A stretch of DNA of 35,703 nucleotides from Rozella allomycis CSF55 (taxonomy: Eukaryota), in contig KE560937.1 in NCBI GenBank assembly GCA_000442015.1, positions 62,001-97,703 of the forward strand, in the 5' to 3' direction. The notes beneath the pieces are model-generated. The model searched no databases. It saw nothing but the letters and a program-made list of their open reading frames with translations, and was not told where the DNA came from. Position numbers and translations under genes: made by a program. The stretch's first letter is position 1. The number at the start of each line of letters is the position of its first letter. Shown piece after piece: positions 14,209 to 35,703 of this stretch.

Positions 14209-16119
14209 TCATACAATTCTTACATCTAGTTCTCCATTAAAAGGATGTCGCCAACCACATTGGAATTGTTCTTGGCCGTATAATCTGGAATTCATCGTGC
14301 TAGTATTATAGCCAACATGATACATGAGTAATGTTTTCGTTGCCACCATTTTACAAGATGAGCATTCTTGAAAATGTCCTCGCAAGCATTTCTGAAGGAT
14401 TACATCGGTGGGGTAATTTGATTCGTTTACCTTACTCTTTTTACTTTTAAAAGATTACTAAAAGATTTGAAAGAGTATTCGCTATTGTCTGCCTGAAAAT
14501 AAGGCCACTATATTTTTAAATTTGCATAGTTACCTTCCACCAGTCCCTATAAATAAAGAACAATGATCAGGGGACTCCAGTTGTAATTGATATAATGCAC
14601 GCATAAAGGTTGACCATTTTCCTTCACACAAAGGAAAATCGTCTTCGATAAGAGCAATATATCTGGAGTCGAAAGAATTTGATGCCAATGCAATCGCCTT
14701 CGAAAAGTGCAATCTTTGGTTGTAGGTATCACCGTCCAGCTGGACCCATTTCAGGAATTCATTTGCCTTTTTATTGTCTTTCAGAAGGTTTTTTGCCTTG
14801 AAGTATGTTTCGTGAAATGAAAAATGAGTAAACACGATCATTTTCATTCTTTTGAATAAAGGATGGTTTGAATCATCGGGAAATTCTTTTAAGTATGACT
14901 GTATTGTGTCTATCAAGTGACTAGGATTTCCGGGTCTTGGTGCAGTCATAATTAGGAAAGTTAATATAGGTTGATCATTTTCACCCAATTGTGCAATTTC
15001 AAATGGAGAAGGCGTAATTTGTGGTTTCGTATGAATAGTATTGCTAAAACAAAGAACAAAAAGCAAAATAAACGAAAACAAGTATAGTTGCCTCAGCCAA
15101 CCCTTCCTTGTCCAGTGTGATCTGCATTTTTCAATTACTTCCCATCCTTCCCGGCTTTTCGAAAAAACAATGAATGTTATAACTTGCAGAGTACCTAGTA
15201 AAAATGACGATATATGCCACCACCACTTGCACTGAATTGTCAATGGTAATGACATAAAGCATAACATTAAGTAACTTTTTCTGACAACTACCGCAAAACT
15301 TTTTTGAGCTGATTTCAGGTCTTCAAAAATGACCATGTACCTATCGCCTGATCGTAACGATTGTAACATCAATATAGCCCATAATAACGGATATAAGCCT
15401 ATTAAATATTTTTTGATCATAATACCTTCAGACGTTTGATGCATGGCTTCGTTAAAAAATAGTGAGGGAAAAGTCCATCCAATTGCCCGGGAAAATAGAA
15501 ACCCGATACCATACTGTATAATAGAAACCATGATTATGCTTAAGAATAACAGATATTTGAAGCTTATAATAGGACCTACAATCCCTGATAGCGAAGATTC
15601 TAAAAGCCATAATGATACAAACGAAATAAGTGCTTCAAACGGGTTCTTGATCAAGAATGGGGCCATGTAATATCCCGTAAAGTCTTTTCCAAAATATACA
15701 TATTTTGTTGCCGCACCTGAATATTCTAAAATTCCGCTACCTTCCATCAACGTGATGCAAAAGGACAGTAAAATGACGAAAGTAGTAGCTGGCAAAAATT
15801 CTAATTTCAATGACGTAAATATATTCTGTCTGAGCACAATTGTATCGCAAGAATTATCGTTTTTGAACAAATTGCTATTCCTGACCACCTCAAAGGTTGA
15901 ATAAGGCAATGATGGAAACCATCTTGAACTACTTCGCTCTGTGTTTGTTAAATCAGAGATCCCCTCCTGTGTAAAACGTACCTTCCATAAACCTGGCAAC
16001 AACTTAAATAATTTTTGGGCAATACTTTGCTTGCCATTAATGTTATTTTCATTTCTGTGACTATATTGTTTTTCTCTATCCTTTAATTTGACAAGTTCGA
16101 GAACTTCAACGGCTGTCAT
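14209..16119 (-). CDS. Multi-pass membrane protein with a C-terminal GT-A glycosyltransferase domain (GT54/MGAT4-like)
   Basis: N-terminal region has about 6-8 hydrophobic segments. Then LTFLIMTAPRPGNPSHLIDTIQS and YIALIEDDFPLC (EDD metal-binding motif as in MGAT4). Two short introns (26 and 28 nt) extend the ORF via GTGGSGLIF to ...YHVGYNTST...CGWRHPFNGELDVRIV* (stop at 14209). A 27-nt in-frame intron is likely at 15425-15399. Confidence 0.65.
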
Positions 16120-16292
16120 TAAATTAATTGGTAAACCCTGCTCCGAAACTCCGTTACCAAGACAATACTTATATTACTCAAGTCTCCATATCCTTTAAAA
16201 TATTTTCCCATACAAATGACATAATTTTTTTGAAAACTCGTTAGACTTTATAGAAATTATAGAAATGTAATATTTCCAATCTCAAATCGGCA

Positions 16293-17009
16293 ATGTTCTC
16301 ATTGTATAATATTTACATAGTTGATTTATACTACATATCTGGAATTGTTTTCATAGCCATGGCTTACTTTTCACCATTCAATAGGCTCAAAAGTCTTCTT
16401 CTCCATGGAAACACCTTAATTAAGTCAGGACAATGTAATTTAGGCGTTTTCTACATCAAAAAGAAAAATTTTAGCCATTTTTATTTACTTGCTGTAATTT
16501 TAGGTTGCTATAAGATGTACTATAATGAAACCGCATCCATTGAATTACCTTTCGTATTCCTGTTACACTTAATTCGAAGGTTATACGAAACAGTATTCAT
16601 ATTTAAATACCGTAGTTATTCAAAAATGCATATAATGCATTATTTGGCCGGGCATTTCTATTACTTCTCGGTATGGGAAATAGTGAGTAGAATATCACTC
16701 TTGTCAACAGTTACATGCATAGTCTTAGTAATATTACAATGCTTTCAATTTTATTTACACGTTATATTGGCTTCAAATACCAACCACGAAACATTGCCTC
16801 ACCAGTTCCCGTATGATATCCTTATTTGCCCTCATTACTTTGTGGAAGTTGTGATGTATATTGTAATTTGCTATTGCGCCAGCTCGAAATCTGCAATTTT
16901 AATGGTCATATTCACTACATTAAACCTAACCATATCTGCATCTTATTTGAAGACATCCTACGAGAAAGTCGGGATTAAGAAATATGCCATCTTTTATGGT
17001 GTCTATTAG
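16293..17009 (+). CDS. DFG10: Polyprenol reductase (steroid 5-alpha-reductase family, DFG10/SRD5A3)
   Basis: Hydrophobic 238-aa single-exon ORF with family motifs FSHFY, HLIRRLYE, SKMHIMHYLAGHFYY, HVILA, CPHYFVEVVMY and NL...A. Confidence 0.85.
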   Translation: MFSLYNIYIVDLYYISGIVFIAMAYFSPFNRLKSLLLHGNTLIKSGQCNLGVFYIKKKNFSHFYLLAVILGCYKMYYNETASIELPFVFLLHLIRRLYETVFIFKYRSYSKMHIMHYLAGHFYYFSVWEIVSRISLLSTVTCIVLVILQCFQFYLHVILASNTNHETLPHQFPYDILICPHYFVEVVMYIVICYCASSKSAILMVIFTTLNLTISASYLKTSYEKVGIKKYAIFYGVY

Positions 17010-17121
17010 GAATTTCGATAAATTATTGACAGTTTTTCATATTTTACTGCTGTATTATGAGATGAAAGGTTAAATAAGAGTCAGTTTTTTAGACATCGGC
17101 CAATTCCGAATCAGCCACAAA

Positions 17122-18025
17122 ATGGAGATCCCAATAGTTACTAAGTATTACCTCGGTGGGATACTATTTACTGCTCTACTTTGCGTAATATCATTAGAAG
17201 TTTGTTATACCAGCATTTAGATTTGGTTACTCCTTACAAACTCTACTTTAATCCAGATCTTGTGGTCAGAAAACTACAGGTATCGTTTCATTTACAGTAT
17301 AGTACAGTTTTGGAGATTGATCACACCATTTTTATATTACGGATCATTTAATTTGGAGCTTTTGATTTCGGTCTATGTTTTACTGAATCAATTTCGGCAT
17401 CTTGAACTAATGTCATTCAGGAATAGAAATGCAGATTTTCTTTATATGCTGATATTCTTTTGTTCTTCTTTATTGGTAAATTATAATATTCTGCGCTATT
17501 GTTTAGGTTATCGACTATTTTGTCCGTACAGCGTTTTTATCATCGGCATTGGAATTTGCTGTTTTATATGTGTGGTCTAGGCTCAACCCAAATATGCATT
17601 TGATGCTTATTTTATTTCCTGTTCGAGCTCCCTATGCACCTTATGGATTGATGGCTATTCATTATTTGCTCATGGGTCGATCATTAAACTACGAATTAAT
17701 GGGAATTTTTGTCGGGCATTTGTATTACTACTTGACAGAAATCTACCCACGTCTAGGAGGCAAAAACTATCTTGAAGCACCGATTATTTTAAAAAGACTA
17801 TTTGGTGAGATATCGGAAACATTAGAAGATATTACTGTAATAGACCACAGCAGAGTTGAAAATTTAAGCAGGAGAAATTTAGCGGCATCAAATACGGATT
17901 ATCGAAATGAAGAACGCAATGAAGGCGATATTGATTCTGTCATTGGCAACTCAAATGGCACGACTGCGAATGATAACAATTTAAATAGTGGAAATGAAGA
18001 AGAAGAAATAAGACTAAGGGAATAG
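17122..18025 (+). CDS. DER1: Derlin (ERAD rhomboid pseudoprotease)
   Basis: Spliced via introns 17185-17213, 17280-17307 and 17476-17506: MEIPIVTKYY...PYKLYFNP...QFWRLITPFLY...ADFLYML...YVWSRLNP...RAPYAPY...GIFVGHLYYYL..YP (WR motif and GHLYYY). The start could extend slightly upstream. Confidence 0.88.
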
Positions 18026-18099
18026 CGTTTATTTTGATAATAAATAATGCATCTTTACTTTTCAACCATTTTGTAAATTTACAAATTCACGCATAACTT

Positions 18100-19313
18100 A
18101 TGCACGGTTACTATTGTCAAGCAGCAACAGTCTATAACCCCGAGTACCAACATTTCTCGCCTGGAAAGGCTTTTGAGCTCCTGTCAAAAGCTAGTTCCTC
18201 CTTTCAGCACATTCAGTTCAGATGGACAGTTTGGAACAAGCCTAAACCAGGAGACATTTACCTCATTTTTATGAAAAATGATGAAGTTTCGGATGATGGT
18301 TACTTTTGGGCAAGTAAAGGTGAAAAAGCCCGGTTCCAATTAGAAGACTCCCAAGTAAACATGTCATGCTGTGTAAATAGATACTTGAAGTGACGACTAA
18401 TGAAGATGGATATTCATTGGGAGACAATTATGTTACTATTACGAAAAAGCTTTATAGGCTTCTCAAAAGTGAGCATCCAATCGCTATAGTTCATTACGTA
18501 GGCGTTGACACAAGTATTAATAGTCATGTAAAAATAATAGATAATATACGAATTCCTGTGAAGCCCTGCATTCCGTTTCCTAAAGCCGCGACTTTGGCTA
18601 ATAATCCCTTGATGACACCTAGACAAAGTTCGTCATTTAGACCTCCCTTCGCTGGCTCACCCGCTGCGTCACCTGCTCTTCGTTATGCGTCTCCCATGAA
18701 TATTCAGAAGTCGCAAATACAATCACTATATGCTCCGAAAAGGCCAGGCCCTACTACGCCTCAATTTAACATGCCCAGACAGCCTGTACTGAACTCACAA
18801 CTGTCTATTCAAGCCGCTAAGAAGAAGAAGAAAGGTGGGCCTGATTTTGACGATGGGGAAGATCTTTCAGGCGGTATTTATTAAACGTGAATTGTATTTA
18901 TAGACGACTTTGATAATTTTGCTGTCTATGAAGTCTCGCAGGCACGATTTATAAGAAACCATGATTTTATGTCAGAAATATTTTCAGACAACCAGCAATA
19001 TTTTAAAGAAGAAACCGTGAGGGATATGGAAAAAGTTAATGAAATGAGACGAATTTTGGAACGACAAATTGTATGCCCATAGATTTACGATAAAAAGGAA
19101 CTTATTAATTTAGATATTCATGCTATGAATGAAAATCATTCGAAGAGAATACAAAGCATGACAGAAGAAGCAAAGCAATTCACAAAGTTGTATTCTGAAG
19201 TGTCAAATGCATCTTCAATAGAAGAATTAGAAAAATACGAAAAAGAAATGAAAGAGAAACGCTTCTTCAATATCTGTACTTTTGGCTCTAATTGCATTAA
19301 AACAAGTATATAA
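18100..19313 (+). CDS. SSR4: SWI/SNF and RSC complex subunit Ssr4-like protein
   Basis: Three introns (26, 30, 27 nt). N-terminal FRWTVWNKPKPGDIYLIF...DDGYFW, Pro/Gln-rich linker, then the Ssr4-type motif EDLSGDDFDNFAVYEVSQARFIRNHDFMSEIF and a C-terminal coiled coil. Confidence 0.75.
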
Positions 19314-19416
19314 ATTTACATTCACATCACACATGTATCTTTATGTGACAGTTCGCAAATCATTGCGTTTCTATTTTTTCTATTTTTATCTTTCGATCGA
19401 CCCAGCCACTTCGAAA

Positions 19417-20760
19417 ATGTTGAAGACTTACGTTATCACAGCATCGATATTTGTAATAACCTATATAACATTTGTTCTGGGCTGGTACTTTATTATTAGG
19501 ACACCACCATCTCCAAGGACTGGCGCCCAAATCAAAGCCAAGTCAAATGGTATTGAACCAAAAAAATATTCCCAGCGTGAAGTGCTGGAGATAAAGATTA
19601 ACGACAAAGCCTTGGAGCCTTTAAATATTGAAATAGATAGAGTAAGTTACCTTGTGAAGTATATGTACGACTTTCCAGTAAGTATACAATCAACTAACGG
19701 GAACATCCTTTTACCATATCTTAGTCTCACAAATTTAAAAATATTGAATAATCTACCTGTTCAATTTAAAAGAATATTTCTAAACTTTAAAAAGCAAGAT
19801 AGTCTGTTTCAACATGGAGTGATAGCCAAATTCCATGACAGAGAAGCAATTAGGAACTTTAGACCCGGATTAAAGTTCGACTTTTCTTTGCAATTTGAAC
19901 TTCAAAGTTTGCCGGATATGGAATTTGAAATATTACAGTTGCCATTGATATTAAAGGCGATTATTGTATCTCGTGTCAATAATAATGACGCGACAAAGTC
20001 TATTATTGAAGAATTGCACAATAAAAAATTCAAAGACGATAAAATGAAAAATATTCTTAGTGGAAAGACCGATGTAGCCGAATTAAAGAAAGATAGCAAT
20101 GAGTTATTTCAACGTATAAATGAATGTGTGGAATCACTAAAGTCCGAATATAAGTGTGATGGAATCCTTGAAAAAGATGAGATAGTCAAAAAAGCCAACT
20201 CAAATACTCAAGTCAAGGCTGCGCTTGAACGAATTTTTAAGGATCAAGCGGATAAAGATTACAAAAGCATGGAAGCCTTTCAAAATATAAAGGTAGAATT
20301 TGGAGATATTGAACTAATCAGACTTCATCTTGAAGACTTTTCTGTTATAATGTTGTATTTATCTTCTCTCCACAGAGATGATATTATGAAAGTACTTTAT
20401 CCTAAATATGAAAAGGCCTTTAAAGATATATTTAAAACATTTATCGAAGAACTTGATGATTTATGTACTATTTTGAAGAATGAATACAATAATGAAAACC
20501 CTGAATATGGGTATTTGACTTCTCTGGATAATAAAATACTGTCCATGGATATTCCGATGACAATGTTAGGAAATGTTGACGAAAATAAAGTGATTGATAT
20601 AGCCAAGGAGGATAGAGTGTTTCTTGTAGAAGACGATAACTTTAATATTGTTAATGATTGGATAAAAGAAAAGTCTCTCGATACTGTAAAGGTGGTGAAG
20701 AGGACGGAATTTGAAAAGGCGCGTGATAGTGTAGAAAGTCTCACTAAAATATTGGAATAA
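19417..20760 (+). CDS. Intronless orphan protein with an N-terminal signal anchor/TM helix
   Basis: ATG at 19417 (in frame with the 19282 ORF) is followed by TYVITASIFVITYITFVLGWYFII, then a long Lys/Glu/Asp-rich helical region. No recognisable motif. AATAAA at about 20773. Confidence 0.65.
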   Translation: MLKTYVITASIFVITYITFVLGWYFIIRTPPSPRTGAQIKAKSNGIEPKKYSQREVLEIKINDKALEPLNIEIDRVSYLVKYMYDFPVSIQSTNGNILLPYLSLTNLKILNNLPVQFKRIFLNFKKQDSLFQHGVIAKFHDREAIRNFRPGLKFDFSLQFELQSLPDMEFEILQLPLILKAIIVSRVNNNDATKSIIEELHNKKFKDDKMKNILSGKTDVAELKKDSNELFQRINECVESLKSEYKCDGILEKDEIVKKANSNTQVKAALERIFKDQADKDYKSMEAFQNIKVEFGDIELIRLHLEDFSVIMLYLSSLHRDDIMKVLYPKYEKAFKDIFKTFIEELDDLCTILKNEYNNENPEYGYLTSLDNKILSMDIPMTMLGNVDENKVIDIAKEDRVFLVEDDNFNIVNDWIKEKSLDTVKVVKRTEFEKARDSVESLTKILE

Positions 20761-20801
20761 CAAGTAGTCTTAAATAAAGGATAATTAATTTTGTTGGGAC
20801 T

Positions 20802-23066
20802 TTATAGTTTAAGTTTTTTAGCGACAATAGCGTCTTTTCTAGTAGCTTCTCTTTTAATTGAGTTTTCAATATTCTTGTTTACAAGCTTTTTAATTTTAGT
20901 CAAGTGATTATTCATTTCATTATGAAAATCAGTGAAAGAATTGGAGTCATTAACGAAAGAACATTCTATTGGAATATTAGCAAATGAAGGGAACGAAAAT
21001 TCTGCACAAGGGTATGGATTTGTTAATTGACTTAAAAATTTGGAGATTATTTCTTGTGAACTTTCAATGCTATGTGAATATTAATGTTAATAGAGTACCA
21101 TAGAGAATGTGATTCCAAGAAGAACTTGTCAATTGAAGCGTTAACCTCTTTTGAGACTGTTGAAATATCATGCTTTAGTTCTTCTTCACTTTTTATAATG
21201 ATTCTATAAATAGCATCTTTGAAATTTCTTTAACAAATTCTTACTTGAAATTTGAGTTAATAGATTCATCAATTCTGGATCTTTCTTTTTAGATTCTTTT
21301 TGGTTTAAATTTGTTTCAAATAATTTTCTCTTTAATCGTGACACTGACAAAGCTGAATCAGTTGTTGATGATTCTTTTGTTGTATGAAAGTTAATTTTAC
21401 CTGAAATTGAACTTGCACTTAATGCAGGGGGAGAAGAGTATTTCTTTCTTCCAATTTCAATTGGTTCTAAAGATGAATTTGATTCTATGGGAAATAGAGA
21501 TTCTCTTCTTTAAATTGGTTTTCTAACCACTGAATTTTCAATTTCATTTTTTGGTTTGAGTTCTATTGGAGTCTTTTTTCGCGTTGATTGAATTGAATTT
21601 CTTTTTATTTTCACAGCAGAATCCTTTATCTTTGGTCTTTCGTTTTGTTCAGTGTATTCTGATTCTTCTGATGATTTTTCTGAAGATATTTCTTTTAATT
21701 TTATTGATTTTCTATTCTGCTTTTTATTAATGCTTTCACTTGTCTTGCTCTTAATGTTCAAACTTTCATCATCCTTCGGCTTCTTCAGATCTACAACATC
21801 TAATTGTTTGACTATATTCTCCTCATTCTTCACATTCGATTCAGATTCACTTTCAATTAACAATTTTTTAAATTTTCTAGCACTTCTTTTAATTGAAAAA
21901 CTTGTTCTATTCTCTTTCTCTGGAATTTCCAAATTGTTGGTGGCTGGGGTCTCTAATTTATTTTTAGATTCAGTATTTTCATTTGTAACTTCCATTAAAT
22001 TTGAAATTCTTTCTTCAACAATTTCTGAATCAAACTTTTTAATTGATAAAAGAGGCTCTATAGGCAATGAATGTTTCTCTTTTCTCACCAATTTTTTTTC
22101 TATAAATTCAATTTCACTTTCCTTTATATCCATCGGTTGGAATTCTATTTTAGATCCATCTTTAGAAATAAATTTTAAATATTTCTTGTTTATTTCAAAA
22201 TCTTTTACATCTTCATATCTTATGTCATTCCAGTCATTATCATCCAAACACAACGTTATAAAATGTTCATTAAAATGAAGAAACGCAGTATCATCAGAAT
22301 CTATTAAAGTTATTCCATTATTTGTAGAATTAATAAACATAAAAGCCTTTTCTATAAAGTTCAACGGATCAAGCTCATAGAATGCCTTTTTCATTCTCAC
22401 ATCACATCCCCTGAAAAGACTATCAATAAAATCATCCTTCTTTTTAGGCGTAATTTTATATAAAAACATTGTCAATTTATACTGAATAACTCTGTCATTA
22501 TCTCCAATCAATACCTTCAACAAGGTTGAAAAATGTTTATTCTCAAACTTAGTTACATATATCTTGTTTTCTTTGCAATCTTGGATCAACAAATTAATTA
22601 CATGACACGCCTTGAAATCAAAAAGACTAATGGATTACTTTTCGTCTGCTATTCAAATCAAATGATTTTGGATTTTCAATTATATTAAAGCATACGGAAA
22701 ATATAGACTTTTGTTCTTGAATTTTTACATGTGCGTCATGATCTATCATTTTCTACCTTGAATTCTAACAATCACTGTTACTTGAATATAGGTCAAAGAT
22801 CTTAGGATTCCATCTTGAAAATGAGATGCCTTGATTAGGTTTTGCAAACATTCAATCATGTCCTGAATATTCTCCTTGCAGAATATGGCCACATTAAACA
22901 AACACTCTGAAATATTCTTTACTAATTCCTTTTGGTTTTCATCTGAAAATTTGATAGAATTCAACAGTGATGCGAATCTCTTTAAACTATTCCCAGCAAG
23001 TTTTATATCATACTTGTTTTGAGCTAAAGTTTTTCTATGTTTTAAAGATGCCAGAAAACTATTCAT
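20802..23066 (-). CDS. SYCP2/Rec10/Red1-like meiotic chromosome-axis core protein, with an in-frame TAA at 21512-21510
   Basis: Five 27-29 nt introns. The N-terminal segment GDNDRVIQYKLTMFLYKITPKK...KAFYELDPLNFIEKAFMFINSTN...AFLHFN...W parallels my recollection of the SYCP2 ARM-like/PH region (GDYDLQV...LCRMT...AFKRIKDSEFETDCRIFLNLVN...FWIDFN). It is followed by a K/E/S-rich disordered region and a C-terminal helical tail ending KKLKL*. Confidence 0.6.
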
Positions 23067-23082
23067 TACAGGGGTACATCAT

Positions 23083-23108
23083 TTGGCGGTTCCCTGAATT
23101 GGCGGTTC
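23083..23108. promoter_or_regulatory. Duplicated TTGGCGGTTC motif (URS1-like or E2F-like GGCGG core) just upstream of the meiotic-axis gene
   Basis: Exact 10-mer at 23083-23092 and 23099-23108, within the 107-bp AT-rich gap, 17-42 bp upstream of the ATG at 23066. Confidence 0.5.
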
Positions 23109-23173
23109 ATCCAAATTAAGAAAATTATGAAATAAACAGTCTAAAATAAATAAGTTTTTATTAATCTACAGTT

Positions 23174-24861
<1,688 letters not shown>

Positions 24862-25261
24862 ATTTCTTTTAATAAATCTAAAGATATTAGCTATGTTCCA
24901 CTTCATGATTAATAAACAAGAACGGGACTTTCAAAGACAAAGAGTTAATTAATCTTTGCTTTGAAAATATCTAAATCCCCGCACAAATTAAAGTTTTAAA
25001 GTCAGATCACTTACTTTCAAAGTTTGACGGAAGATTAATTCCAGCAGTTCTAATATGGACCCGTATTCTCCAATCCTATAAATAGATTCCAAGCCCTTCG
25101 CGTGGCGGCCATGAGCCATAACTGGGTCGTTTCGGTTAGAATAGACAAGAATATGTTATCTTTGATTGAGTAATCAATAAAACAAAGATTATTAATAAAT
25201 TTCTTTCTCTGTGAGCTTAGTTTTGAAATGAATTTTGAATCAGTGAAAATTTAATTTACTA

Positions 25262-25691
25262 GTGGCAGATAATTTGGCTGGGCTTCAGCATCGCGTCGAC
25301 GTATCACTCACATCTGGCTCTGTGTTTACAATGCTTGTTTGTGAAATTGAAAATTTCCTGCCTGAAAACCAGCTTCAGACTAATAGCAATATCAAGATGC
25401 TAGGAGAGCTGAGAGATAGTTAAACTATGTGAATGCGATATTCCGTTGACTAAAGATGCTGCGGTGATGCTTTCGCACACTGGTGAACAATTTTCCCATG
25501 TTCAGAGGATCCTTTTACGCCTTTGGTCGATTTCCATGCATGAAGTATGGAAGATATTTCAAGAGGAAGGACTAATGGGGGCGGTCAAAAACAATTATAC
25601 TAATCCGGGATCTTCCTCTATTTTATCGGCACCGGAGAGAGAGGCTGTAGTCCGTCCTAGTGCAATGGAGTTGTCGGCGGATGATTTTTAA
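25262..25691 (+). pseudogene. Possible degenerate or orphan coding remnant (two open frames offset near 25410-25420)
   Basis: GC-richer island. Frame A (VADNLAGLQH...KMLGELRDS*) overlaps frame B (EIVKLCECDIPLTKDAAVML...SADDF*) at a GAGAG run. No clear start codon and no recognisable homology. Confidence 0.2.
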
Positions 25692-25945
25692 ATCGACCCG
25701 GAGTTGGGAATGTTTGTCCAACCATGATCAATTTTTTATCAGTAAATTATAAATATAAAATATCGATAAACGAAACTCGATTAAAATTCATCATGATCAA
25801 TATAAATGATTAAGAGATAAATGTAAAAATTTCAAACTCTTGCCAGTCTCACATTAACAATGCCTTTCCATGAAGCGTGTATTGTTTCTTAAATATTCAA
25901 TATTTAAGCGTTAAAACTCTTCATCCAGACAATCTTGAAATTTCC

Positions 25946-27031
25946 ATGAGTGAGTGTGAGAAATCTCCAGCCGATTCCATAATTTCATTTACAGAGATAC
26001 CAAATCCCAGTGATTTCGATAGTTTTGGTAAGAAATAATTAAATATATGTTTCAGGTTACGTTTATGGTGGTTCTGTTCTCTGTTGGATGGATGTGGCAG
26101 GAGGAATGGCAGCCAAAAGGCATTCAAACACCATTGTAGTAACAGCAAGCGTTGTAAGATATATATAAATCTGGTAAAAGGACGCTGTTCATTTTCTTAA
26201 TCCAATCAAAAAGGGCTGTGTAGCAAAAATTTACGCGCGAGTGAACCGATCATGGAATTCGAGCATGGAAGTTGAAGTTTTGGTCCAATCCGAAATATTA
26301 TTAACTGGAGAATGTCTTCTTTGTTGCCACGGTAAGTTTTGCCTCTAAAGATTAAATTAGCGTATTTTACCTTTGTCGCGATAAAGGATGAAAAGCCGAT
26401 ATTGGTACCGAAAATTGTCCCCAAACTGAAAGAAGAAATTTTACGATGGGAATCAGCTGATACGAGACGTACAATTCGATTTCAAAGAAAGAAGAACATG
26501 AAACCAGAGTTGATTAAACCAACTGATGTTGTGTATGCGAATGGAAGTTGCCAGATTATAAAAATGATAATGCCTGAACATACTAATCCGATGAATATAA
26601 CATTTGGTGGAATGATAATGTCGTGGATGGAGCATGCTGCGTATATTGCGGCAACGAGGGCTACGAGGACGCATTTATTGACTGCTTCAATGGACCAGCT
26701 GCAGTTCCATAGACCTTCTATGGTTGGCCATTTGGTTACTATTGTAGCCAGAGTTACGAAAGTGTTTAAGCAAAGTGTGGAGGTGTATATTGTTGTGAGA
26801 AGTGAAGATCCGATTACCAATCAAGTACAGTTGACGAATGATGCGTGGATCTCGTTTGTCTCTGTTGATCAAAATGGGAAACCATTTCCACTAAGTGATG
26901 TAGAAGAAATAGGAGAGGTGAAAACTGTTGAAGCAGAAAAGAGAAAGAATCACAGATTGGAAGAAAAGAGGCAAATTTTATCAGAGAACTCTGAAGATTG
27001 GGATATCACTCATCAAACTAGCGCATTTTGA
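25946..27031 (+). CDS. Acyl-CoA thioesterase with two hotdog domains (ACOT7/11/12-like)
   Basis: Introns 26028-26055, 26154-26180 and 26332-26360. Domain 1: GYVYGGSVLCWMDVAGGMAAKRH...VTASVDAVHFLNPI...SSMEVEV. Domain 2: PEHTNPMNITFGGMIMSWME...TASMDQLQF...SVEVYI. Confidence 0.88.
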
Positions 27032-27086
27032 TGTTTCATTAATGAATAAAGAGAAAATTTATTAAGTTGCAATTATGGACTTACTA

Positions 27087-30000
27087 TTAGTTAGCTTTGA
27101 TAATTCGACTGCCATCTAGAACGTATCCATTTGCTTTTAATTCATCCAAAGACTTTTCTACTAATTGTTCTAAAAACAATTTCTTTGCACTGTCCAAGTT
27201 TGAATCACTTTTCAATTTTAGTCCATAAAATGATGGATTTTTTAGCACTCTGTTTGCCAGAAAACTATTTTCAAGTAACGCAAGAGCGTCTTTAAAGGAT
27301 TTGATGTTACCAATTTTGACTTGGGAAAGTAAAAGTTTAGGGAAATGCAAATGAAGGTTTGATTCTAATGGAAAAGGTTCATAAAGGAATTTTTTGTAGT
27401 AAGATTTTTTGATATCTTGAACAAGAACGACGACTGTTGACATTTCGTCTATTTGGGGTCTGCCAGCTAGACCCATCATTTGATGAATATCGGCTAATGG
27501 ATAATCAACAAAACATTTTGATTCAGAGTCAAAGTATTCCGTGCCTATTAAGATTGAAATATTAATTATTACCTAAATAAATGAAGAATGTAAGTGTTAC
27601 CTTTGATGATGACTAGATGAGCAGGAAACCGTGATTCCCAAGCGAACCCTTTAACCAACACCAACACCAATATTTTATTCATAGAAAATAGCATTCTAAC
27701 AATCCTCTTGTCATTATCCTTCAATCCATAGTGCATGAACCCAATTCCGAATCTTAAAACATGTTTCAATTGTTGATCTTGGACGTTATCTAGAACATTT
27801 TCAATTTCAGTGTCGACTTTGAGATAGTTGTTATTGATTGTGCAGTGAGCAATTAATTCATGGGCAGTGGCTACAGTTTGATTTTGGGACGAAACAAAAA
27901 CAACTGTTGGCTTTGATGAGGAGTATGTTTCTATTGCTTGATATATTGGTTTGTTCATTAGATTCATTCTTGTGGAATAATTCTTGTCGTCAAAGCCTTG
28001 AATGTAGACTTGAAGTGGGAGAGGACGAACATTTGGTTTGAAATTGAACAGATTAGATGAAGGTATTTTCAACCAATCAGCAACATCTTTAACGTTTGAT
28101 AAAGATGTAGACAAAACAATCATTCTAATTTTATTGTTAAAGTTCTGTAATTGATGAATATGAGAAATCAATATTTCTACACTTGGATTTAAATCCAACA
28201 AATGTATTTCATCAATAATTATAAGAGATATTTGAGATGAAAAGAATTCCAAATTAAAGTTTTGATTTTCTTGAATTGATTCCATCCACTTTTCAGGTGT
28301 TGACAAGACTAGTTGAGAAACATCAAAGTCGCTGAAACTTCTTAATTCATTCATGGGGATGTTTAATCTTTTCCAATCTCTACTTTTGTCTTTCACAATT
28401 TGTTTCAGTGGAGAGAAATAAATAATTTTGCCATTTGGATTATTTCTTAGTGAATTCCAAATAGTAAATTCAGCAATCAATGTTTTACCAGAGCCTAATT
28501 TATTATGTATGAATAGAATTTACCGCTGGGTGCTCCAATGAATAGATTTGACGTAGTGTGATAAGCTTGATGGAAAACAAGAGATTGAATTGGATTGAAA
28601 TAGTTGATGTCTTTGTAGATTTGTATTAACTTTTCGTCCATGAGACTTGATTTATTTAAAAGATTCAAAGGTAATAAATCTGTATGAAAATTTTCTACTT
28701 TTGGCATTATTAAATCATCAAGTGAGATTGGCAAATGAAATTCACAATGTAGCCATTTGTCACTAACAACAGAAATTAAAATTTCATTTGGTTTTGGATT
28801 AGCAATTGGAATGAAAAAGTTTACGAAATTTACAGAATGAAAGTTTTGTTTCGTTAAATAAAATGGTTCAGAATGATACAAAAACAAGCCATCAGAATCT
28901 TTTGCAAAGATCCAAAATAATTCAGAATTGGAATGCACAGAATCATTCCATGTAAATTTTGTCTTTATTTTTAAATTAACTTTGACAACATTGTTAGAAA
29001 TTGGTGAAATTTCAGATTCTAAAAATAGATTTGGAAATTCATGAATTGCGTTGAAAACAATTTTGCCTTGATTTGGATTTAATAAGTTTGACAAATCAGA
29101 CAGAGAAAGAGATAAAAGTTCATCAAAGGAATATTTTTGGATTTTGAATAAATAGTCATTTTTAATTGATCTGAATTGAAATAGAAAATGATCATCCAAC
29201 CAAAGTCTTTTTTCAATCATTTTAGCTAAATTTAACGACATTTCAGCAGTTGAAGCCCAATTTCTTTTTAATGAAATTTCTAAAATAGATCTGATTAATC
29301 TAGAAGCATTTTGAATTATGTAATTTGTGTCAGATATTAATGAAAACGAATTTAAATGGAAATTAGAAATATAAGATTGAAGTAGAATGTTAACTTTACC
29401 ATTTACAGAACAAGATCCACCGAGAACCGGGATTAAACAATGGTTTTGTTCAATTGAATCTAATTCTAAAACTTCTTCTTGTCTAACTTTAATATTTTGG
29501 AATTCAAAAGATGAACAAAGACAATTTAAAACATTTTTAATGTCCATATCCATTTTTAAACTATTTTGAAATATTTCAACTGTTTGATGTTTCAAATAAT
29601 AAAGAGAAGCAATTCTACCCAAACTCTTTACATTAAATGATAAATTTTCATTTGAATTTGACAAGGGTTCTTTAACAATTCCAATCATATCAAGTTTATT
29701 CAAATATTCCAAAGAACTTTTAATAATCTCAATCAATTTATTTTCAATATTCTGACTCAAATTCTGATTAATTCTAATTCCATATTTCAATGGATTCTTT
29801 CTCATTCTAACGTACAAATAACTATATTTCAACCAATTTATTGCTTCGTTTAAATTAGAAACAGTCCCAAGCGTTATTTCTGCATTTAAATTATCAACCA
29901 GATTGTTATTAAATTTCGATTCAATTGGAATTTGATGTGTTATACTTGAAACATAAAAATTTAATTTTTCATGTCTTGTTATTATTATCCCTTCTCCATG

Positions 30001-31983
30001 ACTTTCATATTGCGGCCTCCCTGCTCTGCCAAATATCTGCAAAACATCTAAAATTCCTAAATCTACAAATCCTCCCTTTTCTGGATTGTAAATTTCCGTT
30101 CCTTTGATTATTACTGCGTGGGCTGGTAAATTAACACCCCAAGCCAAAGTAGCAGTACAAAACAAGACCTTTCATAATGAATGAATCTAAAATGTTACCT
30201 ATACTAATGATTGTAAGTTTTGCTTACCTAAGATAATGAATGCACTATAGACTTTACCTTTATCTTGCTGGTTTCAAATAACTTTTCCACCAATAATCTG
30301 TCACCTCTAATCATCCCCGCATGATGAATCCCAAGTCCATTCGGTACCAATTCTTCTAATTGTCTGTTTCTACTATTCTTTCCATTCCAATTATTCTCAA
30401 CCTCAAATAAATCAATACAATCATATTCTCTCATTAACTGAATAAACTTTTTAGCACCCTTAAATGTTGCATTCCTTGAATGCACAAAAATCATCACTTG
30501 ATGTCCCTGTCTCAAATACTCACACGTTCTTTCAAACGCAATCACATCCATCTCTTCCAAAACCATATTTTTATTATTTCCTTTAATCCCTACAAACTTT
30601 TGCGTCAACGGGACTGGTCTAAATCTTCCATCAAAATAAAACATTCCATTCACATTCACATTCAGAAATTCAGCTACATCCACAAAATTTGGCAACGTTG
30701 CTGATAACCCAACAATTCTTATCATCTTTTGCGTCATTTCAATTTGTCGCTGTGTTCTCGCTACAATACTCTCCAAAACTGATCCTCGCTCGTCTTCAAG
30801 TAAATGAACTTCATCTATAATCAACAGTCTCACCTTTTCAACTAGATCAACATCATTCTTTCTCGTTGTAACATCCCACTTCTCAGGCGTTGTTACTATG
30901 ATCTGGGTCTCTGCTATTTCAGATCTACTCAGTTGCATATCTCCTGTATATTCCCTAGTCTTAACCCCCAGCTTTTTCAATTGTTTCTCAAACTTTCCCA
31001 CAATCTCAGTTGCCAATGCCTTCATCGGCGCAACATACACAATCTTAAATGCATCCTTGTCCAAATTTCCTTTATCATTCACATTTGTATATTGTTCAAC
31101 ACAATGCATAATCGCTAAAAGAGCAACATTTGTCTTTCCTGCACCAGTTGGCGCACACACCAAAACATTCTCATTACGCTCGTAAATAACTGGAAACACC
31201 AATGATTGCATCATATTAAACGTTTCTATATTAGAAAACGCAACTCTGGAAAATTCATTCACTCTATAAGTCGGTACCAATTCCACTTGTACATCTCCTC
31301 CACTCCTCTCACTCGGAATAACAAACTCTTCATACAGCTTATTATCATATCTTTCAGTGCCGGCAGGTAACGCTATTTTAGTGCCGAAAGCTGACAGCAC
31401 CGACGTAGAGCTGGGCTCCCCATACACATGTGGGTACTTTTTCGTTTCTCCAGTCTACATTACCCTCTTGCCAACAATCTTACCACTCTCTTTGAAAATA
31501 TAGATTCATTAATTGACTCATTTTCCTTTTTCTTTTTCAAATCTCGAATCCTTTGAGCATTTTTCCTACGATCCTGTATTAACTTGAAAATCACGTCTAT
31601 CGAATCGTAACCAACAAGTTCCAAGATTTCTTCCTGTATCTCATCATCTATAAACAAAATAATATATCATTTGTACCGCTCATGTTGCATTCAAGCATCT
31701 CTACCATCTTGTCTTGCACATAATCGACTCCCAATTCCCAATTTCGCGTTTCAAAAAATCTTTTAATCCAGTCTTCACTAGAATTTCCTGTTTCTTTGAA
31801 TCTTTGGGTTTTCATTTGTTCCTCTGTTGCCCAGTATCTTTCTACTAACTGGCGAAATTCGAATACTTTGGCTCGCTCGCCCGGAAGATTCCAGTTGACT
31901 GGTTCTTTGCTTATATCCACGGGACGGAACTTTCCTTTTGATATTCTTGATTTTATCAAATTTATTCGGTCAGTGAAATCCAT
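27087..31983 (-). CDS. ASCC3: ASCC3/Slh1 (Rqt2) Ski2-like dual-cassette helicase with a degenerate C-terminal cassette and no final Sec63 domain
   Basis: YPHVY and ALPAGT N-terminal motifs. Cassette 1: APTGAGKT, DEVH, SAT, TATLAWGVNLPA, DLGILDVLQIFGRAGRPQ, then Sec63. Cassette 2: APSGSGKT, DEIH, QMMGLAGRPQ. Five intervening sequences, two of which are stacked mini-introns. Confidence 0.92.
27545..27600 (-). other. Composite 56-nt intron made of two abutting 28-nt introns (zero-length exon)
   Basis: AAAG|gtaacacttacattcttcatttatttag|gtaataattaatatttcaatcttaatag|GCACG. The flanking exons give the contiguous motif IIKG-TEYF. Confidence 0.85.
30169..30257 (-). other. Composite 89-nt intron made of three abutting introns (30+29+30 nt; two zero-length exons)
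   Basis: AAG|gtaaagtctatagtgcattcattatcttag|gtaagcaaaacttacaatcattagtatag|gtaacattttagattcattcattatgaaag|GTC. The flanking exons give contiguous KIK-VLFCTATLAWG. Confidence 0.88.
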
Positions 31984-32254
31984 TTCTGGAAATTTGCAGA
32001 TAGCGATGGGTCATTTTGAGAACCGCTACTGAATATGCGTGTGCATTAATTATTCTAAAAAGTTATATTTGAATTATTTATAATAAATTAGCTATTCTGC
32101 CATTATTTAAGCAAAAATTTTGCAATCGTTCATTTTGATTTTTCAAACAAGGGATGCTTGCATTAATTATAAATTATGATGTATTTGTGGCAATTACGGG
32201 CCTACGGCAAATCTATGCAATTAATATCATTGAGAAATTTCTCCAACCAAACTA

Positions 32255-35200
32255 ATGACCTTGAAGGAATATTATATTCGAGTTAATGTTCCACTATTAG
32301 GTCACACAATTCTTCTATGCGATCCAAGTACTACACCAATCGATGTTCTGACGAAACTACGGGAATATAAATTTGTAATAATGTTCCTTTTCAACCATCA
32401 GGAAAGCCGACCAACTAATGACGTATTTGGCGAATCCAACTTGGTATTTAATGGTGTATAATCATGTAAATTTTAAAATAGCATTTATTGCCACTTCATG
32501 AACCAATAGCGTCCAATGAGTCCATTGTTAAGATGATTTTACGATCTTCTTATCCTGAAATTACAGTGTCTACAAAGAACAACATAGAGGTTGCAAAAGA
32601 TTATGATCAAATTTTACATAATGAATTGGCCGAGGTTTATCAAAAATTACAGACAATGACTGTTTCATTTCTGAACAGAGCTGATTCAGAAAGCAAAAGT
32701 CAGATAAAGGAAGTAAAGGATATTAATAATTTTAATAGATTCAATTAATGAAGAAAAGAATAGGGAATATAATTGGGTTCGGGCTTTACCGGTTTCGAGA
32801 TTCAAGGAGGGAGAAGGGTGAAATTATGTCGTTTAGAAACAATATTTATCAGTAAAATTAACTTAATGCTGTAAAATCGATTCGTTAAGAAGGTAGCGGA
32901 ACGTAGAGACTACGATGAATACATGAATCCTAGCGATGGATTTAAGCGTCCATTAAAAATTGAAAAAGTGATAGCAAGAATAAAATTCAAGGACTCTGAA
33001 AAAACAATTTTAATTGATCGTAATATTTTATTGTAATTTATATAGAATCCGATACTGTAGAGATGGTGTTGCAAAAATCACTTCAGAAACATAAACTTCA
33101 AAATTATGATGATTGGCAGCATTATATACTACGATGGAAGACAAAGGCAATATATTTTACTGAAATGAACAAAAATTTTCTTCAATTATGGAGCCTATCA
33201 GAATGCATGGATGATAGGGAGATTGTGAATTTAACAATTGAGAATTGGAAGGATGTAATTCCGGGAAAATACAAGGAAATCTTCCAGACAATAGATTATG
33301 AAATTCCAGTGGATGAAACAAACTCTCTCCCTGATCCTGTCCACTCATGCGAAGTTGAAAGGAATGTTGAAATCAAGATTGTCAACTGTGAAGATCTACC
33401 GAGTTTAGATTATAATTACATTTATTTAGAGGCTCATTTGTAAGTTATTAATGCCATAGTAGATAGAATGCATGGTGAACAAGTCCTAACAGGTAGCAAG
33501 TTAACCTCGTACCATATTTTTCAACCTAAAGTTGAATTTAAAGAAAGACTTCTTTTTGATTTTCCAATATCGAAGCTTCCCAGATACTCGGAGTTTGTAA
33601 TTAAACTTTACGGATTGAACACTAAAAAATATGATAATGGAAGCATCTGTCTTTTTAAAGGCTCAACTCCGACATTTGAATATAACGGAATATTTAAATA
33701 TGGAAACTTTCAAATGACTCTGTTTAACGTCAATGACCCAAATGCAGCGAACATAAAACTCAACTTTGAAATTCCTTGTGAAGAGATGATAATAATATTT
33801 TCACAGAATGAAAAGTATTATAAACCCGATATAATAACCCGCGTGGACCCTTTGCATCGTGATCTTTTAGAGAGAGCTTTAAGCACAGACCCATTAGATG
33901 AATTAGATCAAAACATGAAGAATATCATTTTCAGATATCGTTACTGTTTAACGCATGATCCTTTATTTTTATCTAAATACGTTAACTCGATTGATTACTC
34001 AAATCAAGCACAAATTGAAGAAAGTCACATGTATATGTTTTTACAATATGTTATTTAGTTTATTGCAACAGTGGTCTGTGAACGAAGAAGTTGATAATCA
34101 TATTTTAGCAATGGAGCTACTAGGATATTCTTTTAGGGATGCGACTGTTAGAGATCATGCAGTGAAATTGTTGAGCGGTATCAGCAATCACGCATTGAAA
34201 GGATTTCTTTCACAATTTATACAGGTTATACTTTGTAATTTGATTTACTAGTGTTTAAAGAATGAACTATATTTCGATAATAGTTTAATAAGATTCTTGT
34301 TGGAGAAATCATTAAATAGTAGAACTATTGGTCATACATTATTTTGGTATCTCAAAGTAAAGTAGATAAATTATTGTCACAGGCTGAAATCGAAGAGCCA
34401 GAAATGAGCATACCGTGTGCTCTGTATTTAGAAGCGTATCTTCGTGCTTGTTCTTCAACAGTTTTGGTAATGTCTTTTGGTTGAAGATAACTAGAATCTT
34501 CTCGAGAGAGAAAATAAATTAAATTGTTTTCTGATAAATCTATCAAAAGAAATTAAACTAATAAATGATTCCAAGAACAAATTGATTCATCTCAGAAGAG
34601 AACTAGGAAAACACTCACTTCATTTACCAGTGTCCATGCCATACGACCAAAATATATTTTGCGGCGACTTTATTGTTGAAAAATGCAAAATCATGGACTC
34701 GAAAAAGGTAGATATCTAGATTGGTTAATAAAAGCAACCATTGTGGTGCGCCATGAATAATCACTTATGCGCTGATGACCCCATTTACTATATATTCAAA
34801 GAAGGTGATGATCTAAGGCAAGACATGTTAACCCTCCAAATGTTAAATTTGATGAACAATGTAAAACGAATATACTCTTTAAATTAGATCTGGAAAGATG
34901 AAGGATTCAATTTCCATATGAAAATTTATAATGTTATTTGTACTGGAAAAGAAACAGGCTTTATACAAGTTGTAAGAGATTCACAAACTGTCAGTTGTAT
35001 TCAAAAGGAATACGGCGGATCAACTGCGGCTTTTAAGGATCAACCGATTTCAGACTTCATTAAACAATATAATCCATCGGAATCTGAATATTTGGATGCT
35101 GTTGATATATTCACTCGATCATGTGCAGCTTATTGCGTCGCTACGTATATTCTTGGGATCGGTGATCGTCACAACGATAACATTATGGTCACAAAACAAG

Positions 35201-35601
35201 GTCATTTGTTTCACATTGATTTTGGACACTTTCTGGGAAACATAAAAAGGAAATTTGGAATCAAACGTGAAAGGGCACCATTTGTGTTGACGCCGGATTT
35301 TGTATACGTCATGAAAACAAAGTCTTCAGATCAATTTGACTTTTTTATAGGATTATGTGTAAAAGCATACAATATAATCAGAAAACACGGTAGAATGTTT
35401 CTTGTACTATTCAAATTAATGTTGTCCACCGGTATCCCTGAATTAACATGCAATGAAGATATTTTCTATTTAAGGGATGCCCTGAAATTAGACCTTGATG
35501 ATGTACAGGCGGAAAAACATTTCAAAGGCTTGATCTCTGAAAGCTTGAGACTTGGTTGGAGTACACAATTGAACTGGTTAATTCACAATCTAGCTCATTG
35601 A
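32255..35601 (+). CDS. Class I-type phosphoinositide 3-kinase catalytic subunit (p110-like)
   Basis: Twelve 26-28 nt introns. IGNIIGFGLYRF...EIMSFRNN (p110 linker), RBD-like region, C2 (LPRYSEFVIKLYG), helical domain (VRDHAV, QFIQCLKNE, FWYLKAE) and kinase (MDSKKQPLW, FKEGDDLRQDML, LGIGDRHNDN, HIDFGHFLGNIKRKFGIKRERAPF, WSTQLNWLIH). Confidence 0.9.
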
Positions 35602-35703
35602 ATTCAATAAATTAAAGTTAATGTATAAAGTTATCGAATTTAATTTAATGGTACGTAATAAGTTATTATCGGACGGGGAGTTTACGACCCGGACTTCAGA
35701 AAC

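What the first reader, a model, noticed from the sequence alone, without database searches (positions are those of the whole stretch)
30169..30257. Three back-to-back mini-introns with zero-length exons: probable recursive splicing
Seen: every simple intron I mapped in this window is 26-31 nt. This 89-nt gap resolves exactly into three units, 30257-30228 (30 nt), 30227-30199 (29 nt) and 30198-30169 (30 nt). Each starts GTAA and ends AG, and they join at TAG|GTAA with no exon between. The flanking codons rebuild the contiguous helicase motif KIK|VLFCTATLAWG, so no micro-exon is needed. Retaining any single unit gives a stop or frameshift. Established: AG|GT ratchet points are known from recursive splicing of very long animal introns. 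Inference: a spliceosome with a roughly 28-nt ruler can remove a longer intron only piecewise, so long introns here exist as quantised stacks.
Basis: partly seen in the sequence, partly recalled or inferred. Interest (0 to 1): 0.92.

Follow-up and report, generated by a model that had tools for sequence, protein, structure and literature searches.

The report
Stacked mini-introns in a Rozella gene
An 89-base gap in a helicase gene of the parasitic fungus Rozella allomycis is built from three complete, end-to-end copies of the organism's usual ~28-base intron, and a second two-unit stack sits in the same gene, which suggests but does not prove that longer introns here are removed piece by piece.

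Summary
On the minus strand, 30257-30228 (30 nt), 30227-30199 (29 nt) and 30198-30169 (30 nt) each run GTAA...AG. They abut at TAG|GTAA, and their joint removal gives ...SKIK|VLFCTATLAWG... of an ASCC3/Slh1-type helicase. A second stack of 28+28 nt lies in the same gene at 27600-27545.

The window matches Rozella allomycis CSF55: its exons are 100% identical to NCBI-named proteins.

My census gives 43 single introns, all 26-31 nt, plus these two stacks. No intron of intermediate length is needed.

A random 89-nt intron parses into three such units in 36 of 2,000,000 simulations, and a random 56-nt intron into two units in 11,550 of 2,000,000. All five units score mid-range among the single introns at both splice sites.

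Stepwise (recursive-type) splicing is the most likely mechanism, but it is untested. No RNA run held the locus, no whole genome is held, and no close relative was found. The idea of a length ruler rests on two cases in one gene.

I found no description of stacked mini-introns in ten literature searches. Verdict: a new variant of a known kind.

The parts
30228..30257 (-). Stack unit 1: 30-nt mini-intron, GTAAAG...UCAUUAUCUUAG
   Evidence: PWM scores are 5' 7.3 (30 of 42 single introns score lower) and 3' 4.9 (23 of 42 lower).
30199..30227 (-). Stack unit 2: 29-nt mini-intron, GTAAGC...UCAUUAGUAUAG. It abuts unit 1 at TAG|GTAAG.
   Evidence: PWM scores are 5' 6.6 (23 of 42 lower) and 3' 6.2 (35 of 42 lower).
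30169..30198 (-). Stack unit 3: 30-nt mini-intron, GTAACA...UCAUUAUGAAAG. It abuts unit 2 at TAG|GTAAC.
   Evidence: PWM scores are 5' 6.9 (27 of 42 lower) and 3' 4.3 (18 of 42 lower). It shares the 10-nt string CATTCATTAT with unit 1.
30258..31454 (-). Upstream exon of the ASCC3/Slh1-type helicase (first RecA cassette), ending ...LFETSKIK
   Evidence: best hits are named antiviral helicase SLH1 / ASCC3, at 50-54% identity. P0241 is identical here.
28524..30168 (-). Downstream exon, starting VLFCTATLAWGVNLPAH
27573..27600 (-). Second stack, unit D1: 28-nt mini-intron, GTAACA...UUUAUUUAG
   Evidence: PWM scores are 5' 5.8 and 3' 3.9.
27545..27572 (-). Second stack, unit D2: 28-nt mini-intron, GTAAUA...CUUAAUAG. 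Removing D1 and D2 together gives HLVIIKG|TEYFD.
   Evidence: P0241 reads AHLVIIKGTEYFDSE.
27090..31983 (-). Whole helicase gene (Rozella allomycis 'Sec63-domain-containing protein'), with three single 29-nt introns at 31676-31648, 31483-31455 and 28523-28495, plus the two stacks

Best explanation
The 89-nt gap is a head-to-tail array of three autonomous U2-type GT-AG mini-introns with zero-length exons between them. It lies in the ASCC3/Slh1 helicase gene of Rozella allomycis. A two-unit array sits 2.6 kb downstream in the same gene.

Shown:
- Each unit has the length (28-30 nt), the GTAA 5' end and the (T/A)AG 3' end of the organism's ordinary introns.
- Each unit of the 89-nt array has a UCAUUA(U/G) block 5-6 nt before its 3' end.

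Inferred:
- A spliceosome that pairs the nearest 5' and 3' sites across ~28 nt (intron definition) will treat each unit as a normal substrate.
- The array is therefore cleared in two or three successive reactions, probably 5' to 3' as the RNA is made.
- Removing unit 1 joins exon ...AAG to GUAAGC of unit 2, which rebuilds an ordinary exon|5' splice-site junction. The same happens for unit 3.
- Any order, or any pairing of an upstream 5' site with a downstream 3' site, ends in the same mRNA. The arrangement is therefore harmless and can persist.

The arrays most likely arose by tandem duplication of a mini-intron, or by gain of internal sites in a longer ancestral intron at an old intron position.
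For: - Anatomy and reading frame.
- Only full removal gives an open frame, and it matches homologues: 129 of 132 cassette junctions in 80 loci are uninterrupted at this motif.
- The public protein model P0241 also lacks all 89 and all 56 nt.
- Census: 43 of 43 single introns are 26-31 nt, and 2 of 2 longer gaps parse exactly into such units.
- Chance of such a parse: 36 of 2,000,000 for 89 nt and 11,550 of 2,000,000 for 56 nt. With GTA required: 5 and 3,861.
- All five units fall mid-range among the 42 single introns for the 5' matrix (16-30 of 42 lower) and the 3' matrix (15-35 of 42 lower). Their summed scores are reached by only 5-27 of 987 decoy GT..AG stretches.
- The whole window, both strands, holds only 3 abutting GTA..AG|GTA..AG pairs, and all three are in these stacks.
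- Unit 2 and the pair D1/D2 are no more alike than unrelated introns, yet they keep complete signals. This is expected if the internal sites are used.
- No RNA fold would bring the outer sites together: z = -0.77 for the 89 nt and -0.19 for the 56 nt.
- Zero-nucleotide-exon resplicing at AG|GTAAG is an established reaction in Drosophila (abstract of 10.1101/006163, seen in the listing).
Against: - No RNA evidence of any kind was available. No listed run holds the stretch, and the one run laid gave only short unlike matches.
- The sample is two stacks in one gene of one 35.7-kb window.
- If the units are recent duplicates, their internal sites are there by descent and need not be used. Units 1 and 3 share a 10-nt string (rank 1 of 1081 pairs) and 63% identity.
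- Nothing here shows that this spliceosome cannot remove 56 or 89 nt in one step.
- The window-wide count of abutting pairs is only modestly unusual: at least 3 in 5 of 200 simulated windows.
- 28 of the 43 single introns rest on my own path search alone.
- A U1 snRNP bound at a 5' site that touches the preceding 3' site might hinder use of that 3' site (my inference).
Confidence: 0.55

Rival explanations
1. The gap is a single long intron with relic internal sites. A mini-intron was duplicated in tandem not long ago. The spliceosome pairs the first 5' site with the last branch point and 3' site and removes 89 nt (or 56 nt) in one step. The internal AG|GTAA joints are leftovers that are used rarely or never.
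For: - The public gene model is compatible with one 89-nt and one 56-nt intron.
- Units 1 and 3 share CATTCATTAT, the longest common interior string of 1081 pairs, and 63% identity (top 6-7 of 1081). This points to duplication.
- An unrelated eukaryote (L034) removes a conventional 67-nt intron at exactly this position. Long single introns at this site are therefore normal elsewhere.
Against: - Internal sites as good as those of ordinary introns, at the organism's normal spacing, would be expected to compete successfully under nearest-site pairing.
- Unit 2 and D1/D2 show only background similarity, yet all their signals are intact.
- No single intron longer than 31 nt was needed anywhere else in the window.
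Confidence: 0.3
2. The stack is a regulated delay or surveillance device. Extra rounds of splicing slow maturation, and any unit left in gives a premature stop. Output of this ribosome-quality-control helicase is thereby tuned through nonsense-mediated decay.
For: - Both stacks lie in one gene: 2 of its 5 intron positions, against 0 of 40 positions in the other genes.
- Every partial form carries a premature stop.
Against: - There is no expression data.
- Two events in one gene can be coincidence or shared mutational history.
- Ordinary retained mini-introns would give the same premature stops.
Confidence: 0.1
3. The stack is an assembly or sequencing artefact, that is, a spurious tandem repeat of one intron.
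For: Tandem repeats of ~29 nt can be miscounted in short-read assemblies.
Against: - The units are far from identical: 31-63% ungapped identity between units of the 89-nt stack and 57% between D1 and D2.
- There are two separate stacks with unrelated sequences.
- The protein from a differently sized contig (16,102 nt) has the same exon joints.
Confidence: 0.03

Closest known systems
Zero-nucleotide-exon recursive splicing at ratchet points in Drosophila long introns (abstract of bioRxiv 10.1101/006163, seen in the listing; Ubx work recalled)
   Same: A 3' splice site is directly fused to a 5' splice site (AG|GTAAG). After the first ligation, a functional 5' site is regenerated with no exon in between.
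   Different: - In Drosophila the segments are kilobases long, lie in very large introns, and stepwise removal has been shown with RNA.
- Here the segments are 28-30 nt, each the size of the organism's whole normal intron, and nothing has been shown at RNA level.
- Each unit here is complete before any splicing, so no fixed order is required.
Fungal spliceosomal twin introns (stwintrons) and 'complex intervening sequences' removed by consecutive splicing (PMC7138796, abstract and passages read; other titles and abstracts seen only in the listing)
   Same: - Fungal lineage and U2-type units.
- One intervening sequence is made of more than one intron and cleared by successive standard reactions.
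- That paper proposes origin by new internal sites or small duplications ('stwintronisation').
   Different: - In stwintrons an internal intron is nested in, and usually interrupts, a splice signal of the external intron, so the order is inside-out.
- Here the units are side by side, none interrupts another, and there are up to three.
Ultra-short intron systems: Paramecium and Nyctotherus ~25 bp (PMC5014332, abstract and passages); myxozoans under 30 bp (PMC13644364, abstract and one passage); ~30-nt putative introns noted in R. allomycis S23 (PMC6349667, passage)
   Same: A very narrow intron length distribution near the lower limit for splicing, with AT-rich introns and weak internal signals.
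   Different: Term searches inside PMC5014332 (tandem, twice, double, recursive, adjacent introns) and PMC13644364 (tandem, recursive, consecutive, multiples) found no abutting introns or length multiples. I did not read either paper in full.
Intron gain by tandem duplication of an AGGT-containing segment (Rogers model; recalled, no paper read here)
   Same: Tandem duplication creates a new GT...AG pair that is spliceable at once. This is a plausible origin of the stacks.
   Different: That model duplicates exon sequence to create a first intron. Here a whole intron would be the duplicated unit, which leaves no exon between the copies.

Membership tests
Ordinary GT-AG mini-introns of Rozella allomycis | Length within the organism's normal range | tested here: met
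   The units are 30, 29, 30, 28 and 28 nt. The 43 single introns span 26-31 nt.
Ordinary GT-AG mini-introns of Rozella allomycis | 5' GTA(A) and 3' (T/A)AG ends that score like known introns | tested here: met
   All five units rank mid-range among the 42 single introns for both matrices.
Ordinary GT-AG mini-introns of Rozella allomycis | Removal is needed to restore a conserved reading frame | tested here: met
   Only full removal gives an open frame, and it matches homologues and P0241.
Zero-nucleotide-exon recursive splicing | Juxtaposed 3'/5' splice sites (AG|GTAAG) inside an intervening sequence | tested here: met
   The joints are TAG|GTAAG, TAG|GTAAC and TAG|GTAAT.
Zero-nucleotide-exon recursive splicing | Stepwise removal shown by RNA intermediates or lariats | not testable with these tools
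   No RNA run holds the locus. The one run laid was uninformative.
Zero-nucleotide-exon recursive splicing | Serves to subdivide very long introns (kilobases) | tested here: not met
   The whole arrays are 89 and 56 nt.
Zero-nucleotide-exon recursive splicing | Ratchet sites conserved between species | not testable with these tools
   No close relative was found. The best metagenome loci are 57% identical or less, and none has mini-introns at this spot.
Stwintron (strict sense) | An internal intron interrupts the donor, branch or acceptor element of the external intron | tested here: not met
   The units abut, and each has its own intact GTAA and AG before any splicing.
Complex intervening sequence cleared by consecutive splicing (stwintron sensu lato) | More than one U2 intron unit within one intervening sequence | tested here: met
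Complex intervening sequence cleared by consecutive splicing (stwintron sensu lato) | Consecutive reactions shown by RT-PCR of intermediates | not testable with these tools
   No RNA data.

The most novel reading that the evidence does not exclude
The R. allomycis spliceosome has an upper as well as a lower length limit, roughly 26-31 nt. Any longer intervening sequence in this genome can then exist only as a stack of autonomous mini-introns removed one at a time. If so, genome-wide intron lengths would be quantised at about 28, 56 and 85 nt, and old long introns would have been converted into stacks as the splicing machinery narrowed. An example is the one at this position, which is 67 nt in another eukaryote.
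Probability: 0.3. Interest if true: 0.85.

Novelty: new variant of a known kind. Interest (0 to 1): 0.66.

Why it matters
Why some eukaryotes have extremely narrow intron length distributions is an open question. It could be mutational bias, selection for economy, or a true mechanical window of the spliceosome.

Stacks of complete mini-introns would be direct evidence for a mechanical or recognition window. They would also extend zero-length-exon resplicing from giant animal introns to the smallest introns known in fungi.

The idea is cheaply testable. The public R. allomycis genome and annotation allow a length histogram and a parse test. One RNA-seq or RT-PCR experiment on infected Allomyces would show whether intermediates exist.

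It also matters for annotation. Gene finders tuned to ~28-nt introns will miss stacks, and generic ones will mis-model neighbouring exons. The public model of this very gene seems to do the latter.

Tried and rejected
- Whole genome: none is held for this window, so the genome-wide length and parse test could not be run.
- RNA evidence: no RNA holder was listed for 27000-32100. The one metatranscriptome run offered under the same species label was laid on 16000-35703 at 80% likeness. It gave 28 pieces, the 8 listed being 37-48-nt matches with 4-8 mismatches each, and no joints. This is uninformative and is not evidence either way.
- Relatives: a single-protein scan of metagenome contigs found none.
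- Relatives, second scan: an alignment-based scan returned 80 loci at 43-57% identity, none with mini-introns at this junction. Conservation of the internal sites therefore could not be tested.
- Earlier scan notes: nothing for this genome, its look-alikes or the topic. The hits for 'recursive splicing' concerned viruses and protein domains.
- Micro-exon reading: rejected. Homologues are contiguous across the joint.
- Ciliate code reading (TAA/TAG = Q): rejected. Exons of 558 to 1693 codons are open under the standard stops, and translating the gap under table 6 still meets a TGA stop.
- Structured long intron (a hairpin that shortens the effective distance): rejected as unsupported (z = -0.77 and -0.19).
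- Apparent long introns of 200-400 nt from my path search turned out to be gene boundaries or a GTT donor.
- Literature: ten searches found no description of abutting mini-introns or of recursive splicing in organisms with tiny introns. Either could contain an intron-length histogram that bears on the quantisation claim.

Full report
**What is there.** Read on the minus strand, the 89 bases 30257-30169 are three consecutive stretches:
- GTAAAGTCTATAGTGCATTCATTATCTTAG (30 nt, 30257-30228)
- GTAAGCAAAACTTACAATCATTAGTATAG (29 nt, 30227-30199)
- GTAACATTTTAGATTCATTCATTATGAAAG (30 nt, 30198-30169)

They meet at TAG|GTAAG and TAG|GTAAC. The flanking exons read ...EKLFETSKIK and VLFCTATLAWGVNLPAH....

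**The gene and the organism.**
- The gene is an ASCC3/Slh1-type Ski2-like helicase. The best hits of the upstream exon are named 'antiviral helicase SLH1' or 'activating signal cointegrator complex subunit 3', at 50-54% identity.
- A 1693-codon exon of the neighbouring axonemal dynein gene is 100% identical to an NCBI protein named for Rozella allomycis CSF55 (P0121).
- The helicase's downstream exon is 100% identical, over the 85% of it that is covered, to 'Sec63-domain-containing protein [Rozella allomycis CSF55]' (P0241).
- The window is therefore R. allomycis, a cryptomycotan parasite of Allomyces and a relative of microsporidia.
- The standard stop codons apply, because exons of 558 to 1693 codons are open under them.

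**A second stack.** The same gene carries GTAACACTTACATTCTTCATTTATTTAG (28 nt, 27600-27573) directly followed by GTAATAATTAATATTTCAATCTTAATAG (28 nt, 27572-27545). Removing both gives AHLVIIKG|TEYFDSE. P0241 reads straight across both places (...SKIKVLFCTATLAWG... and ...AHLVIIKGTEYFDSE...). The public model therefore also removes all 89 and all 56 nt.

**Census of introns in the window.** I wrote a shortest-path search that walks each gene codon by codon and may jump over GT...AG stretches. I also mapped the two public proteins exactly onto the DNA.
- Together they give 43 single introns: 26 nt x7, 27 x10, 28 x13, 29 x9, 30 x1, 31 x3.
- 42 of the 43 start GTA. The exception is a GTT donor at 34225.
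- 15 of the 43 are implied by the public proteins. 28 rest on my search alone.
- A doubtful 37-nt candidate at 25419-25455 was left out.
- Places where the search first needed 200-400-nt jumps proved to be gene boundaries, for example a small gene ending before the PI3K gene's start near 32905, or the GTT donor.
- So every intervening sequence in the window is either one unit of 26-31 nt or one of these two exact stacks.

**Is it chance?**
- I drew intron interiors from a first-order Markov model trained on the single introns' interiors and kept the outer ends. An 89-nt intron can be cut into three GT..AG units of 26-31 nt in 36 of 2,000,000 trials (5 if GTA is required). A 56-nt intron can be cut into two units in 11,550 of 2,000,000 trials (3,861 with GTA).
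- With looser units of 22-36 nt, the figures are 446 and 30,293.
- Position matrices built from 42 single introns put all five stack units mid-range: at the 5' end 16-30 of 42 singles score lower, and at the 3' end 15-35 of 42. Their summed scores are reached by only 5-27 of 987 decoy GT..AG stretches from the window.
- A scan of the whole window on both strands finds just three abutting GTA..AG|GTA..AG pairs, and these are the stacks. This global count is only modestly unusual: simulated windows average 0.60, and 5 of 200 reach 3.

**Consequences of partial removal.** Every form that keeps one or two units of the triple, or one or both units of the double, runs into a premature stop. Those that leave 28, 29, 56 or 59 nt also shift the frame. 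No micro-exon is needed. In 80 metagenome loci with ASCC3/Brr2-type genes, 129 of 132 cassette junctions read through ...K-VL-CTATLAWG... without a break.

**Origin.**
- Units 1 and 3 share CATTCATTAT, the longest common interior string among all 1081 pairs of the 47 units (42 single introns plus the five stack units). They are 63% identical, which puts them in the top 6-7 pairs. This suggests tandem duplication.
- Unit 2 and the pair D1/D2 are not outliers. D1/D2 identity of 0.57 ranks 44-60 of 1081.
- The position of the triple stack is an intron position elsewhere too. Locus L034 (an unrelated eukaryote, GC 0.52) has one conventional 67-nt GT..AG intron exactly between K and VLCCTATLAWG. 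L042 and L043 have a 250-nt intron at the homologous spot of the second cassette.
- Two routes remain open: duplication of a mini-intron, or conversion of an older long intron by gain of internal sites. The second is the 'stwintronisation' idea proposed for Lipomyces (PMC7138796, abstract and passages).

**How it most likely works.**
- Shown: each unit carries the full set of recognisable signals at the organism's normal spacing.
- Inferred: under nearest-site pairing across the intron, which is the accepted mode for small introns and long exons (PMC5014332, discussion passage), each unit is a normal substrate. Removal of unit 1 places exon ...AAG before GUAAGC, which is an ordinary 5' junction, and so on for the next unit.
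- All possible pairings lead to the same mRNA, so the arrangement is robust.
- Formally this is the zero-nucleotide-exon resplicing known from Drosophila ratchet points (abstract in the listing), but at 1/1000 of the scale and without an obligatory order.
- A fold that would shorten the distance between the outer sites is not supported.
- I put 0.55 on stepwise removal, 0.3 on one-step removal with relic sites, and small weights on a regulatory role or an artefact.

**What could not be done.**
- No RNA run holds the locus.
- No genome is held.
- No close relative exists in the collections searched.
- The genome paper is not held, and supplements are closed.
- Whether splicing is recursive, and whether a length ruler exists, are therefore still open.

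**Literature.** Ten searches found stwintrons, Drosophila and human recursive splicing, and several ultra-short-intron systems. They found no report of abutting mini-introns or of intron lengths in multiples. One paper notes two putative ~30-nt introns in R. allomycis S23 (PMC6349667, passage). Another gives 2.5 introns per kb for the species (PMC8476143, passages).

**Verdict.**
- It is best filed as a new variant of known multi-step splicing architectures.
- Interest is 0.66. If the quantisation holds genome-wide it would deserve about 0.85.

Noticed in passing
window 28492-28750, minus strand: The public protein model P0241 jumps from ...SVVSDKWL to RSGKTLIAEF... It drops about 75 residues that are open in frame here, including the second cassette's GAPSGSGKT P-loop. 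My path keeps them with a 29-nt intron at 28523-28495. The public model is probably wrong at this spot.
   Followed up: partly
window 27090-31983 compared with the rest of the window: Both stacks lie in the one helicase gene: 2 of its 5 intron positions, against 0 of 40 positions in the other genes. This could be coincidence, shared mutational history, or something specific to this gene.
   Followed up: no
L034 2973-3039; L042 9233-9482: An unrelated eukaryote has a conventional 67-nt intron at exactly the triple-stack position (K|VLCCTATLAWG). Another has a 250-nt intron at the homologous position of the second helicase cassette. The position may be old.
   Followed up: partly
window about 9866, minus strand (dynein): There is one amino-acid difference between the window and the public dynein protein P0121: GLTEYER in the window, GLAEYER in P0121. 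This is an allelic or assembly difference within R. allomycis CSF55.
   Followed up: no
window 34225-34251, plus strand: This is the only intron in the census with a GTT rather than a GTA start. It lies in the PI3K gene, and its removal restores the conserved ...IGHTLFWYLK... region.
   Followed up: partly
window 25419-25455, plus strand: A 37-nt GTT...AG stretch would join two small ORFs (25247-25420 and 25413-25688). It is longer and more GC-rich than all the other introns. It may not be an intron at all.
   Followed up: no
window 32234-32905, plus strand: A small gene with one or two 26-nt introns ends about 100 nt before the likely ATG of the PI3K gene. Intergenic spacers across the window are only tens to a few hundred bases long.
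   Followed up: partly
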